Below are positions 14,178-21,615 of a stretch of DNA of 64,000 nt, one piece after another. The DNA is from an uncultured Clostridium sp. Lineage in GTDB: Bacteria; Bacillota_I; Bacilli_A; RF39; UBA660. The stretch lies in the NCBI GenBank assembly GCA_905199855.1, contig CAJKHY010000002.1:8571-72570 (forward strand). The letters are read 5' to 3'. Numbering within the stretch: the first letter of the stretch is position 1; each line of letters opens with the position of its first letter. The translations under genes and the position numbers were made by a program. The notes under the pieces are model-generated. The model was not told the DNA's origin, searched no databases, and saw only the letters and a program-made list of their open reading frames with translations.

Positions 14178-14699
14178 TTATATTATAACATTAGTAACAT
14201 CACTAAAATTTCTACATTTTTCTTCTAACAATGGAAAATTACAACATCTATCCTTTACATTTTTAGGTAATTTATTATTTTTATATAAACTGTATAATAA
14301 TTTTGATTTTTTGTTTATTTCTTTTCTATTAAGTGTTAACCAACGTAATTGATTTCTTAATAACTCAATTCTAAGCATTTCTTTTTTATCAGTAGTCCTC
14401 TTATTTAAGTCAAACTCAATATAATTTTTTGAAGTTACTGGAATCATATTATTAAAATTAACTACTCCATATACTCCATTATCTATCTTTACTAAATCCA
14501 AAGTATTTTTTAAAGACATATGTTTTGGCTTAGGGCTAGAAAGTGGAGCAAAATATTCACACTTGCCAACCATAAATAAAACTCCAATAAAAGGTCTCAA
14601 TTGTTTTTGCCCTGCATTATATGGTACTTTATTATCAAACAATCTTAAATAATCACAATAATTTGAATTTACTTTTACAATTTTAAATTTCTTATACAT
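14178..14699 (-). CDS. toxN: ToxN/AbiQ-family endoribonuclease (type III toxin-antitoxin toxin)
   Basis: 173 aa. MYKKFKIVKVNSNYCDYLRLFDNKVPYN...RPFIGVLFMVGKCEYFAPLSSPKPKH...CCNFPLLEEKCRNF aligns by eye with ToxN blocks: MKFYTI..YIEYLK.FDDKV, AFIGIV...YLAPLTSPK..H, C.F.VLEEKYRDF. The ribosome-binding site GGATGGTGA precedes the ATG at 14699. Confidence 0.8.
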   Translation of the reverse strand: MYKKFKIVKVNSNYCDYLRLFDNKVPYNAGQKQLRPFIGVLFMVGKCEYFAPLSSPKPKHMSLKNTLDLVKIDNGVYGVVNFNNMIPVTSKNYIEFDLNKRTTDKKEMLRIELLRNQLRWLTLNRKEINKKSKLLYSLYKNNKLPKNVKDRCCNFPLLEEKCRNFSDVTNVII

Positions 14700-14793
14700 A
14701 TAACATCACCATCCACATCTATTAATTAATTATACCTTAATATAAATATTATCATTTGTTAACTTTGCTTATTGATTATCTTCATTATAATAT

Positions 14794-14822
14794 AAAGAAT
14801 TAAAAATGTCAATAAAGTTTCA
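14794..14822 (-). promoter_or_regulatory. Sigma-A-like promoter (TTGACA-17-TATAAT) directly upstream of toxN
   Basis: On the minus strand: TTGACA (14822-14817), a 17-nt spacer, TATAAT (14799-14794). This is a perfect consensus. It is placed between the upstream terminator and toxN. Confidence 0.55.
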
Positions 14823-14844
14823 TACATTTGTTTGAATATTTTTT

Positions 14845-14875
14845 CAAAAAAAGATTAGAGTCTGCTCTCTAATCT
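14845..14875 (-). terminator. Intrinsic terminator between the repeat array and toxN
   Basis: AGATTAGAG-tctgct-CTCTAATCT is a perfect 9-bp stem. On the minus strand it is followed by a U7 run (A-run at 14846-14852 on the plus strand). It is also T-flanked on the plus strand. Confidence 0.7.
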
Positions 14876-14877
14876 AC

Positions 14878-14957
14878 TTTTTTAGCTGCCATTTATAGAG
14901 CTGGCTTCACTCGCTTTTTTAGCTGCCATTTATAGAGCTGGCTTCACTCGCTTTTTT
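14878..14957 (-). repeat. Tandem direct repeat, 37 nt x 2.2 copies; candidate ToxI-like RNA antitoxin
   Basis: Two identical units TTTTTTAGCTGCCATTTATAGAGCTGGCTTCACTCGC at 14878-14914 and 14915-14951, plus a third T6 start. Read on the toxN strand, each unit is GCGAGUGAAGCCAGCUCUAUAAAUGGCAGCU followed by A6. It lies immediately 5' of the terminator and toxN. Confidence 0.6.
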
Positions 14958-15022
14958 GTTACTACATAAGTAGCATTATTATTATATGCATAACTGCACA
15001 ACATAATCACTTATGTGCAATT

Positions 15023-15051
15023 AATATACCACATTTGCATGATTTTTGCAA
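15023..15051 (-). promoter_or_regulatory. Sigma-A-like promoter (TTGCAA-17-TgGTATATT) upstream of the repeat array
   Basis: Minus strand: TTGCAA (15051-15046), a 17-nt spacer, then extended -10 TGGTATATT (15028-15023). It would give an RNA that runs through a roughly 65-nt leader and then the repeats. Confidence 0.45.
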
Positions 15052-21504: not shown

Positions 21505-21615
21505 TAACTACATATGAGACAATATTATGATATTGTCTCTTTTTATTTTAATATTACAACTTACTACTTGACAATGCATAGTAGTCGGTTATATAATATA
21601 GATGAAAGGAGAATT

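What the first reader, a model, noticed from the sequence alone, without database searches (positions are those of the whole stretch)
14178..15051. ToxN/AbiQ-family toxin preceded by promoter, 37-nt tandem repeats and terminator: a candidate type III toxin-antitoxin locus with a new RNA antitoxin
Seen in the sequence: the ORF at 14699-14178 (minus) has the ToxN/AbiQ blocks. Going upstream on that strand there is:
- a consensus TTGACA-17-TATAAT promoter;
- a perfect 9-bp-stem hairpin with a U7 run, which is an intrinsic terminator;
- two exact 37-nt direct repeats plus the start of a third;
- a second promoter with an extended -10 and a roughly 65-nt leader.
Read as RNA, each repeat ends in A6 and carries GCAGCUA. 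ToxN-family nucleases process their cognate RNAs in A-rich tracts.

Established knowledge: type III TA loci (ToxIN, AbiQ/AntiQ, CptIN, TenpIN) are promoter, 2-5.5 short tandem repeats, terminator, toxN. Two features are atypical here. A strong promoter lies between terminator and toxin. The terminator is about 145 nt from the toxin start. Either could indicate a regulatory variant, or that the repeat module is decoupled.

The locus sits between lemA and holA in an otherwise core region and may act as an abortive-infection/defense locus.
Basis: partly seen in the sequence, partly recalled or inferred. Interest (0 to 1): 0.78.

Follow-up and report, generated by a model that had tools for sequence, protein, structure and literature searches.

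The report
ToxIN type III toxin–antitoxin cassette
This is a compact cassette encoding an RNA-cutting toxin (ToxN) preceded by a short repeated RNA predicted to fold into a pseudoknot and neutralise the toxin. It is a clear but ordinary member of a known anti-phage/addiction family, and its only unusual trait is an extra consensus promoter directly in front of the toxin gene.

Summary
The ORF 14699-14178(-) is a full-length ToxN (PF13958, E 6e-45). Its nearest solved relative is B. thuringiensis ToxN.

Upstream on the same strand lie:
- a promoter;
- a ~65-nt structured leader;
- two exact 37-nt repeats plus a 7-nt third start;
- a 9-bp/T7 terminator;
- a perfect TTGACA-17-TATAAT promoter, then toxN.

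All 24 related loci (uncultured gut Bacilli MAGs) share the same promoter-leader-repeats-terminator-toxN module. Their repeat units covary to keep an H-type pseudoknot: 98% of cells paired, three pairs with compensatory changes. G·U pairs fit only the minus-strand RNA. Repeat and toxin co-diverge.

This is therefore a bona fide ToxIN-family type III toxin-antitoxin locus. Its size, copy number and layout fall within published ranges. The RNA is missed by Rfam ToxI, but it has the same topology as known ToxI RNAs, and my model of it detects a Fusobacterium plasmid toxI.

The internal toxN promoter recurs in some relatives and is absent in others. It is a plausible but untested regulatory variant.

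Verdict: new member of a known kind, with modest interest.

The parts
15023..15051 (-). P1, promoter of the antitoxin array: TTGCAA-17-TATATT with TG upstream of the -10
   Evidence: Consensus scan gives 9/12 plus TG. A promoter at the equivalent place, consensus TAGACA-17-(TRTG)n-TATATT, is present in all 24 related loci. Activity was not measured.
14958..15022 (-). Structured leader of the toxI precursor. It comprises a 5' hairpin (15018-14996), a conserved TGCATATAAT box (14990-14981), and a hairpin (14975-14960) immediately 5' of the first A-run.
   Evidence: Sequence is conserved in most related loci. A hairpin directly before the first A-run is kept in every locus, with different sequences. 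No Rfam match. Function is inferred only.
14921..14957 (-). toxI repeat unit 1 (37 nt): AAAAAAGCGAGUGAAGCCAGCUCUAUAAAUGGCAGCU
   Evidence: TRF finds 100% identity between copies. The covariance model scores it 55 bits, E 4e-14. Pseudoknot covariation is shown.
14884..14920 (-). toxI repeat unit 2 (37 nt), identical to unit 1
14877..14883 (-). Start of a third unit (AAAAAAG). It supplies the A-run that would let the last full unit be cut free.
   Evidence: TRF reports 2.2 copies. The same terminal A-run plus G precedes the terminator in all related loci. The cutting role is inferred from B. thuringiensis ToxN specificity, A^AAAA.
14845..14875 (-). Intrinsic terminator: 9-bp stem AGAUUAGAG/CUCUAAUCU, 6-nt loop, U7
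   Evidence: The hairpin is conserved in all related loci with compensatory and G·U changes, for example GGCUAGAG/CUCUAGUC and GACUAAAG/CUUUAGUC.
14784..14812 (-). P2, internal promoter-like site TTGACA-17-TATAAT between terminator and toxN
   Evidence: 12/12 match. Only 2 such sites occur in the window against 0.2 expected. It is identical in same-species contigs. Comparable sites exist in L006, L012, L009, L022 and L023, and none in 10 loci. Activity was not measured.
14705..14710 (-). Shine-Dalgarno GGUGAU, 5 nt before the ATG
   Evidence: Read from the sequence. Equivalent GGTGAT/GGGGG motifs occur in related loci.
14178..14699 (-). toxN, 173-aa ToxN/AbiQ-family endoribonuclease toxin
   Evidence: PF13958 E 6e-45, full length. 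PADLOC AbiQ E 6e-35. PDB hits: 4ATO E 3e-22, 2XD0 E 1e-15, 7D8O E 2e-15, 4GLK E 6e-6, with the PL(T/S)SPK active-site stretch aligned. 2735 homologues were found, some named by NCBI as 'type III toxin-antitoxin system ToxN/AbiQ family toxin'.

Best explanation
The region is a self-contained ToxIN-family type III toxin-antitoxin (abortive-infection type) cassette of about 0.9 kb.

**Shown by sequence and comparison**
- The toxin is a full-length ToxN.
- The repeats, terminator, promoter and leader form a module that travels with toxN.
- The repeat RNA keeps an H-type pseudoknot. Stem A is GAG/CUC. Stem B is GCCA/UGGC. A-rich single-stranded tails flank the stems.

**Inferred from the characterised ToxIN systems**
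- P1, plus read-through from holA, transcribes the leader and the toxI array. Most transcripts stop at the terminator.
- ToxN cuts the precursor in the A6 runs, probably A^AAAA as for B. thuringiensis ToxN. This releases 37-nt pseudoknots.
- Each pseudoknot bridges two ToxN monomers and blocks their active sites in a closed, probably 3:3, complex.
- When transcription is shut off, for example by phage, the labile RNA decays. Free ToxN then cuts A-rich RNA and arrests the cell.

**Variant feature, inferred only**
- toxN here probably also has its own promoter (P2). If so, toxin mRNA would not depend solely on terminator read-through.
For: - **Toxin identity.**
- **Locus anatomy.**
- **Conserved module.** All 24 related loci have 1-6 units of 33-40 nt, followed by the same hairpin and then toxN.
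- **Pseudoknot covariation.** On 33 distinct units, 98.3% of cells are paired. Pairs 10-25 (GC/AU/UG/CG/GU), 11-24 (GC/AU) and 17-37 (GC/UA/AU) change on both sides. 0 of 500 shuffles reach the observed score, and slid controls reach at most 48.5%.
- **Strand.** G·U and U·G cells in the pseudoknot and the terminator are pairs only in the minus-strand RNA.
- **Co-divergence.** Repeat identity tracks toxin identity, Spearman 0.75, p 3e-5.
- **Link to a known toxI.** The covariance model finds the toxI repeats of a F. polymorphum plasmid, full length and in register (E 5e-5).
- **Published ranges.** ToxIN repeats are 31-62 nt, in 1.9-5.6 copies, with a mean toxin of 168 aa. Known ToxI RNAs are H-type pseudoknots with two single-stranded tails. 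Cleavage specificities are A^AAAA, AA^AU and A^AAA.
- **Selection on the toxin.** The exact toxin protein occurs in 325 assembly blocks, at the same holA-toxIN-lemA site in all six full-length same-species contigs examined. This argues for an intact, maintained gene.
- **P2.**
Against: - Nothing was measured. Toxicity, antitoxicity, RNA processing, transcript ends and phage defence all rest on homology.
- A single repeat folds no better than shuffles in a nested-structure prediction (z -0.02). Support for the pseudoknot is therefore purely comparative.
- The structure was drawn from the same sequences it was tested on, and many of the units are related by descent.
- Rfam ToxI does not recognise the RNA. 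My model sees B. thuringiensis, Lactococcus and C. botulinum toxI only at E 0.05-0.4.
- Of the five ToxN(Pa) active-site residues, T52/S53/K55 align (as S-S-P-K) and K33 aligns to Arg. Y29 falls in an alignment gap.
- A strong independent toxN promoter sits awkwardly with the published model, in which the terminator sets a roughly 10:1 antitoxin excess.
- Three relatives have a broken toxN, so such cassettes do decay.
Confidence: 0.87

Rival explanations
1. This is a canonical single-promoter toxIN. P2 is only a chance consensus match in AT-rich DNA, or a very weak site. toxN is expressed purely by read-through of the terminator, as in the P. atrosepticum paradigm.
For: - The window is 27% GC. 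Promoter-like matches of at least 9/12 are no commoner in the locus than in shuffles (16 against 14.3). Sites of at least 11/12 are not enriched in the window (10 against 8).
- Ten of 25 related loci have spacers of 22-38 nt with no room for a promoter. The family therefore works without one.
- The spacers that carry promoter-like sites are not homologous to each other.
Against: - A 12/12 match with optimal 17-nt spacing is rare: 2 in 128 kb scanned against 0.2 expected.
- It lies exactly where a toxN promoter would be, with its -10 hexamer ending 84 nt upstream of the toxN ATG, and is unchanged in all same-species contigs.
- Five other loci with longer spacers independently carry matches of 9-12/12, three of them with a TG extension.
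Confidence: 0.4
2. This is a decaying or domesticated remnant. The array has shrunk to about two units and the toxin has been uncoupled by an inserted 145-nt spacer. The locus no longer acts as a toxin-antitoxin pair, because the toxin is inactive or serves another role.
For: - Copy number is at the low end of the family.
- The spacer is the longest among the 25 loci.
- toxN is disrupted in L010 (stop codon) and in L022 and L023 (frameshifts), while their repeats persist.
- The chromosomal location is between housekeeping genes.
Against: - The ORF is intact and full length against the Pfam profile. The SSPK active-site stretch and the C-terminal CCNFPLLEEKC motif are conserved.
- The identical protein is present in 325 assembly blocks.
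- The repeats are 100% identical to each other.
- Published functional toxIN systems have as few as 1.9 repeats. For P. atrosepticum, 1-1.5 repeats sufficed to repress ToxN.
Confidence: 0.07
3. The repeats are not an antitoxin but some other repeat element, such as protein-binding DNA repeats, a plus-strand RNA or an assembly artefact, that merely lies next to toxN.
For: - The hairpin also scores as a terminator on the plus strand.
- Copy number differs between assemblies, and one scaffold has a gap inside the array.
- No Rfam family matches.
Against: - The repeats accompany toxN in 24 of 24 related loci at many different chromosomal sites.
- Covariation maintains RNA pairing, including G·U pairs valid only on the minus strand.
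- All flanking genes and P1 point the same way.
- The model finds no other copy in the 64-kb window.
- The repeats co-diverge with the toxin.
Confidence: 0.03

Closest known systems
ToxIN of Bacillus thuringiensis plasmid pAW63 (PDB 4ATO; Rfam ToxI RF02519)
   Same: - It is the nearest solved toxin (E 3e-22).
- The layout is promoter, repeats, terminator, toxN.
- The repeat begins with an A-run, and two interleaved stems can be drawn in the same order. For B. thuringiensis this is from my reading of the sequence.
- ToxN(Bt) cuts A^AAAA, which fits the A6 boundaries here.
- The decamer TGCATATAAT occurs upstream of the array in both.
   Different: - Repeats are 34 nt x 2.9 there, against 37 nt x 2.2 here.
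- The repeat sequence is too different for RF02519 to detect this RNA, or for my model to detect the B. thuringiensis one (E 0.07).
- pAW63 has no long leader, and its terminator abuts the toxN ribosome-binding site with no internal promoter.
- It is plasmid-borne there and chromosomal here.
toxIN of Fusobacterium polymorphum plasmid pKKCOM1330A (annotated ToxN/AbiQ family toxin)
   Same: - It is the best plasmid relative of the toxin (43% identity).
- Its 37-nt repeats AAAAAGUCGGUGUACUCUACCGUAUAAGUGAGAACUA are found in register by the model built from this family (E 5e-5).
- A leader with a hairpin precedes the first repeat.
   Different: - There are 3-4 units.
- The leader is about 100 nt with an unrelated sequence.
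- The toxin is annotated as 290 aa.
- There is no promoter between terminator and toxin.
ToxIN of Pectobacterium atrosepticum pECA1039 (PDB 2XD0/2XDD), the founding type III system
   Same: - Same Pfam family and fold class (E 1e-15).
- Same gene order.
- H-type pseudoknot antitoxin with single-stranded tails.
- The active-site stretch TSPK aligns to SSPK.
   Different: - Repeats are 36 nt x 5.5.
- Cleavage is at AA^AU.
- It is described as a single constitutive promoter, with about 10% read-through setting the ratio.
- It has no structured leader and no internal promoter.
AbiQ/antiQ of Lactococcus lactis pSRQ900 (PDB 4GLK)
   Same: - Same toxin superfamily: PADLOC AbiQ model E 6e-35 and 4GLK E 6e-6.
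- 35 nt x 2.8 repeats followed by a terminator, with cutting in an A-rich tract.
   Different: It is a much more distant toxin than ToxN(Bt) or ToxN(Pa), with a different repeat sequence.
CptIN and TenpIN type III families
   Same: The general logic of repeats, terminator and endoribonuclease toxin is shared.
   Different: - The toxin families differ. This protein hits only PF13958 at E <= 1.
- Repeats are longer: 40-48 nt and 39-57 nt.
- CptI forms a different pseudoknot and a 2:2 complex.

Membership tests
ToxIN family of type III toxin-antitoxin systems (criteria of Blower et al. 2012, PMC3401426) | The toxin is a ToxN/AbiQ homologue | tested here: met
   PF13958 at 153.7 bits against a cut-off of 25, covering positions 2-159 of 159. 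Matches to four solved ToxN/AbiQ structures.
ToxIN family of type III toxin-antitoxin systems (criteria of Blower et al. 2012, PMC3401426) | [quoted passage not shown] | tested here: met
   A 9-bp stem followed by T7 at 14875-14845, conserved with compensatory changes in relatives. Termination itself was not measured.
ToxIN family of type III toxin-antitoxin systems (criteria of Blower et al. 2012, PMC3401426) | The terminator is preceded by a tandem array of short repeats (published range 31-62 nt, 1.9-5.6 copies) | tested here: met
   37 nt x 2.2 copies at 100% identity.
ToxIN family of type III toxin-antitoxin systems (criteria of Blower et al. 2012, PMC3401426) | Promoter elements lie upstream of the array (preferred, not strictly required) | tested here: met
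   TTGCAA-17-TG-TATATT at 15051-15023. An equivalent promoter is present in all 24 relatives. This is sequence evidence only.
ToxIN family of type III toxin-antitoxin systems (criteria of Blower et al. 2012, PMC3401426) | Each repeat forms an H-type pseudoknot with single-stranded tails | tested here: met
   Two interleaved helices are supported by covariation: 98.3% of cells paired, 3 pairs with compensatory changes, 0/500 shuffles. This is comparative evidence, not structural.
ToxIN family of type III toxin-antitoxin systems (criteria of Blower et al. 2012, PMC3401426) | ToxN active-site residues (Pa numbering Y29, K33, T52, S53, K55) | tested here: inconclusive
   In the HMMER alignment, TSPK aligns to SSPK and K33 aligns to Arg. 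Y29 lies in an alignment gap, although a Tyr is nearby.
ToxIN family of type III toxin-antitoxin systems (criteria of Blower et al. 2012, PMC3401426) | A bicistronic operon from a single promoter, with the terminator setting the antitoxin:toxin ratio | tested here: inconclusive
   A 12/12 consensus promoter-like site lies between terminator and toxN. It is present in some relatives and absent in others. No transcript data are available.
ToxIN family of type III toxin-antitoxin systems (criteria of Blower et al. 2012, PMC3401426) | The toxin is toxic, the repeats neutralise it, ToxN processes the precursor, and a closed RNA-protein complex forms | not testable with these tools
   Requires expression, cleavage and assembly experiments.
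ToxIN family of type III toxin-antitoxin systems (criteria of Blower et al. 2012, PMC3401426) | Abortive-infection (phage defence) phenotype | not testable with these tools
   The host is uncultured. The only evidence is homology to the PADLOC AbiQ model.
Rfam ToxI (RF02519) | The RNA reaches the family's score with the Rfam covariance model | tested here: not met
   No hit at E <= 10 in the window, nor at E <= 1 in L007 and L013. The same search scores the pAW63 repeats at 59, 47 and 40 bits. The RNA works like ToxI but is outside the current Rfam model.
CptIN / TenpIN type III families | CptN- or TenpN-type toxin with repeats of 40-57 nt | tested here: not met
   Only PF13958 is hit. The repeat is 37 nt, against the published ranges.

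The most novel reading that the evidence does not exclude
In this clade of gut Bacilli, the type III system may have been rewired into two separate transcription units.

- One unit would be an antitoxin sRNA gene: P1, a conserved hairpin-bearing leader, the repeats, and an efficient terminator.
- The other would be a toxin gene with its own constitutive consensus promoter (P2).

The antitoxin:toxin ratio would then be set by relative promoter strength and RNA stability rather than by terminator read-through. The conserved leader would be a functional part of the antitoxin precursor, acting as a 5' stabiliser or folding insulator. As far as I found, neither an internal toxin promoter nor a conserved leader is described for type III systems in the papers read here.
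Probability: 0.35. Interest if true: 0.45.

Novelty: new member of a known kind. Interest (0 to 1): 0.3.

Why it matters
The locus adds a well-defined, widely distributed subfamily of ToxIN to the catalogue. The toxins share at least 60% identity within the clade and at most 43% with any plasmid-borne relative. The subfamily sits in uncultured, small-genome gut Bacilli.

It also supplies a covariation-supported alignment of its antitoxin RNA, which current Rfam does not detect and which could seed a broader ToxI model.

If the internal toxN promoter is active, the locus would show that type III systems tolerate uncoupled transcription of toxin and antitoxin. That would bear on how the ratio is controlled and on the transcription-shutoff model of activation.

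None of this changes the understanding of the family. As an annotation, the right label is simply 'toxIN type III TA / Abi cassette'.

Tried and rejected
- **Rfam.** Scans of the locus and of relatives gave only noise (snR62, mir-466, STnc390 at E 2-7). There was no ToxI hit.
- **NCBIfam.** No family matched the toxin.
- **Single-repeat folding.** The nested MFE fold recovers stem B only and is no better than shuffles. Thermodynamic folding alone cannot support the pseudoknot.
- **toxN 5' UTR.** Folding of the 5' UTR transcribed from P2 gives z 0.16, so there is no sign of a structured regulatory element.
- **Leader.** RNAalifold on 11 leaders found two small invariant helices and no compensatory changes. 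The leader sequence is too conserved to test structure that way, so per-locus folding was used instead. The leader is not markedly more conserved than toxN DNA (0.67-0.88 against 0.73-0.80 identity). I therefore dropped the idea that it is under exceptional constraint.
- **A second promoter inside the leader.** The candidate is GTGATT-18-TATAAT, by analogy with pAW63. It was considered and left open, because the -35 is poor and its spacing varies between loci.
- **A small ORF in the leader.** The 26-aa ORF at 15010-14930 is not conserved; L007 has ATG followed directly by TAG.
- **Phage carriage.** An exact scan of viral contigs for the repeat found 0 matches. Phage records hold only distant ToxN relatives of at most 41% identity.
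- **Model against other toxI arrays.** The model scores the pAW63, Lactococcus and C. botulinum repeats at only E 0.05-0.4.
- **Empty site.** A search for an empty holA-lemA site via LemA relatives in metagenome contigs found none. The one holA-linked locus (L040) has three housekeeping-type ORFs in between.
- **Papers.** The supplementary table of Blower 2012 and the Short et al. 2013 paper are not held in the library.
Full report
**1. Checking the observation**

- **ORF.** The ORF 14699-14178 encodes 173 aa, with GGTGAT five bases before the ATG.
- **Repeats.** Tandem Repeats Finder reports 14877-14957 with period 37, 2.2 copies and 100% identity. That is two exact units (14957-14921 and 14920-14884) plus AAAAAAG.
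- **Terminator.** One base downstream of the repeats is a perfect 9-bp hairpin with a 6-nt loop and T7 (14875-14845). The region holds 2 terminator-like hits against 0.2 expected, and both are the two strands of this hairpin. Folding gives z -2.6.
- **Internal promoter (P2).** TTGACA-17-TATAAT lies at 14812-14784 and is a 12/12 match. Only two 12/12 sites exist in the whole window on both strands, against about 0.2 expected in a Markov simulation. Sites of at least 11/12 are not enriched.
- **Upstream promoter (P1).** TTGCAA-17-TATATT with a TG extension lies at 15051-15023.
- **Flanking genes.** They are LemA with DUF2207 on one side, and holA, a polysaccharide deacetylase and gatB on the other, all on the same strand.

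**2. What the toxin is**

- The protein matches Pfam ToxN_toxin over the entire profile (E 6.1e-45) and the PADLOC AbiQ model (E 5.9e-35).
- Among solved structures it is closest to B. thuringiensis ToxN (4ATO, E 2.9e-22). Next come P. atrosepticum ToxN (2XD0, 1e-15), E. coli ToxN (7D8O, 2.4e-15) and AbiQ (4GLK, 5.5e-6).
- The active-site stretch PLTSPK of ToxN(Pa) aligns to PLSSPK, and the C-terminal CCxFxLLEEKC motif is kept.
- 2735 homologues were found. Some are already named by NCBI as 'type III toxin-antitoxin system ToxN/AbiQ family toxin' in Bacilli MAGs.
- The best plasmid or phage relatives are at most 43% identical, so this is a distinct subfamily.

**3. Comparative evidence for the module**

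A genome scan returned 24 related loci with toxins 60-80% identical. Most are from 'uncultured Bacilli bacterium' gut MAGs. Every one has the same order of parts:
1. a promoter (consensus TAGACA-17-TRTGn-TATATT);
2. a leader;
3. one to six units of 33-40 nt, each beginning with an A-run;
4. a hairpin GAUUAGAG-N6-CUCUAAUC with U-rich tail;
5. a ribosome-binding site and toxN.

The terminator stem shows compensatory and wobble changes, for example GGCUAGAG/CUCUAGUC and GACUAAAG/CUUUAGUC.

The cassette sits at many different places between housekeeping genes. It lies after holA in the window and in L009, L022 and L023, where holA is only about 40% identical. It lies before lemA in the window and L010. 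This is the behaviour of a small autonomous module.

Within the window's own species the exact toxin protein occurs in 325 assembly blocks. It was at the same holA-toxIN-lemA site in all six full-length same-species contigs examined, and P2 is unchanged in those six and in a seventh, partial contig. The array there has 1.2, 2.2 or 3.2 units, and one scaffold has a gap inside the array. The copy number in the window may therefore be affected by assembly.

**4. The repeat RNA**

I aligned 33 distinct units from the 25 loci. They support two interleaved helices:
- stem A, G(A/G)G with C(U/C)C;
- stem B, (G/U/A)CCA with UGG(C/A/U).

The order is A5'-B5'-A3'-B3', which is an H-type pseudoknot flanked by an A-rich 5' tail and a 4-nt 3' tail.

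On this structure 98.3% of cells form standard pairs. Three pairs change on both sides: GC/AU/UG/CG/GU, GC/AU, and GC/UA/AU. No shuffle out of 500 reaches the observed covariation, and sliding the partners drops pairing to 16-48%.

Two caveats apply. I drew the structure from these same sequences, and many units are related by descent.

The wobble pairs are valid only in the minus-strand RNA, which settles the strand question. Repeat divergence also follows toxin divergence (Spearman 0.75), as expected for a cognate pair.

This matches the published description of ToxI RNAs as classic H-type pseudoknots with two single-stranded tails, which bridge two ToxN monomers. It also matches the finding of Blower et al. 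2012 that ToxI sequences differ widely while keeping two base-pairing regions.

**5. Is the RNA new?**

- Rfam's ToxI model (RF02519) scores the pAW63 repeats at 59, 47 and 40 bits. It scores nothing in this family.
- A covariance model built from my alignment finds only the two units in the window. It also finds, full length and in register, the 37-nt toxI repeats of a Fusobacterium polymorphum plasmid (E 5e-5).
- The same model reaches only E 0.05-0.4 on the pAW63, Lactococcus and C. botulinum arrays.
- By eye, those arrays share the same plan: A-run, G, two bases, GUG-type stem A, stem B, stem A', loop, stem B'.

The RNA is therefore a sequence-divergent ToxI, not a new kind of antitoxin.

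**6. The two 'atypical' features**

*The gap.* The hairpin end is 153 nt from the ATG, the longest among the 25 loci; the range is 22-153 nt. [quoted passage not shown] 2012.

*The internal promoter.* Promoter-like matches in the spacer between terminator and toxN are as follows.

| Match in the spacer | Loci |
|---|---|
| 12/12 | window, L006 |
| 11/12 | L012 |
| 10/12 plus TG | L022, L023 |
| 9/12 plus TG | L009 |
| Exact TATAAT -10 with a poor -35 (9/12), -10 ending 17-23 nt before the start codon | nine further loci |
| None (spacers of 22-38 nt) | ten loci |

The spacers are not homologous between lineages. An independent toxN promoter therefore looks like a recurrent, non-essential addition.

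The reviews I read describe type III operons as transcribed from a single promoter, with the terminator giving roughly a 10:1 excess of antitoxin. An active P2 would thus be a regulatory variant. It could also serve to restore transcription of lemA-DUF2207 downstream of the cassette's terminator, because no terminator was noted by eye after toxN. That idea is inference only. Whether P2 fires is unknown.

**7. The leader**

Between P1 and the first A-run lie about 65 nt (15022-14958). The leader has three parts:
- a hairpin near the predicted 5' end (15018-14996, GNRA-type loop);
- a conserved TGCATATAAT box;
- a hairpin (14975-14960) immediately before the first repeat.

Most relatives share the sequence. 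Those with different leaders (L012, L013, L015, L009) still place a hairpin directly before the first A-run.

I infer a role in stabilising or insulating the precursor. Alternatively, the TATAAT box could be a second promoter, since the same decamer forms the -10 of the promoter-like site upstream of pAW63 toxI. The leader is not conspicuously more conserved than toxN itself, and I could not test its function.

**8. Mechanism, and what is shown versus inferred**

*Shown by sequence and comparison:* toxin family membership, the conserved module, the pseudoknot covariation, the strand, and co-divergence of toxin and repeat.

*Inferred from characterised ToxIN systems:*
- ToxN cuts the precursor in the A6 runs, probably A^AAAA as in B. 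thuringiensis.
- The 37-nt pseudoknots assemble with ToxN into a closed inactive complex.
- Loss of the labile RNA frees ToxN to cut A-rich RNA, causing growth arrest or abortive infection.

In a 27% GC genome almost every mRNA contains A5 runs, so free toxin would be broadly destructive.

**9. Verdict**

The locus meets every sequence-testable criterion of the ToxIN family. Its dimensions (37 nt, 2.2 copies, 173 aa) are close to the family means of 38.1 nt, 2.8 copies and 168 aa.

It is a new member of a known kind. The internal promoter and the conserved leader are worth a note as possible regulatory variants, but both are untested. Interest 0.3.

Noticed in passing
window 15063-15045 and 14095-14077 (minus strand): A 19-nt imperfect direct repeat (16/19) brackets the cassette, 968 nt apart. 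The copies are ATAAAAAAATAGTTGCAAA, holding the P1 -35, and ATAAAAAAGTACTTGTAAA, holding the lemA promoter-like -35. The window's P1 -35 (TTGCAA) also departs from the family consensus TAGACA. This could be an insertion scar that fused the cassette to a copy of the lemA promoter region, or it could be chance in AT-rich DNA.
   Followed up: partly
window 14958-15022 (minus strand); leaders of L001-L024: A conserved ~65-nt leader precedes the antitoxin repeats. It has a 5' hairpin, a TGCATATAAT box and a hairpin that always sits directly before the first A-run, with different sequences in different loci. C. botulinum plasmid toxIN also starts its leader with an ACAUAAG...CUUAUGU hairpin. The papers read here do not describe such a leader.
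   Followed up: partly
L027-L033 (same species, other metagenomes): The repeat array has 1.2, 2.2 or 3.2 units in otherwise near-identical contigs, and one scaffold has an N-gap inside the array. This is either real copy-number variation or short-read collapse of exact repeats.
   Followed up: partly
L010:3001-3510, L022:3001-3510, L023:2876-3340: toxN is disrupted in three related loci, by an in-frame stop in L010 and by frameshifts in L022 and L023, while their toxI arrays and terminators remain intact. This could be toxin decay or sequencing error.
   Followed up: partly
window 14759-14827 (minus strand): A 22-aa hydrophobic ORF (MYETLLTFLILYIIMKIINKQS) overlaps the P2 promoter and has no Shine-Dalgarno. 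It is probably a chance ORF in AT-rich DNA.
   Followed up: no
window, plus strand, -35 hexamer starting at 21568: This is the only other perfect TTGACA/TATAAT match in the window, with 18-nt spacing. It was not examined.
   Followed up: no
L009, L022, L023 and window: The cassette lies directly after holA in four lineages whose holA proteins are only 38-41% identical, while the toxins are 70-73% identical. This may reflect a preferred insertion site or old vertical inheritance with a fast-evolving holA. In L040, a relative with 74% LemA identity, holA and lemA are separated by three other ORFs and there is no toxIN.
   Followed up: partly
L009, L022, L023: spacer between terminator and toxN: The promoter-like sites in these three spacers (TTTACA or TCTACA, 17 nt, TG-TATATT or TATCAT) contain an inverted repeat ACAAA-N4-8-TTTGT between the hexamers (read by eye). 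It might be an operator. This was not tested.
   Followed up: no
L025:701-1573: The Fusobacterium polymorphum plasmid ToxN relative is annotated as a 290-aa protein, far longer than the usual ~170 aa. This suggests a C-terminal extension or fusion.
   Followed up: no
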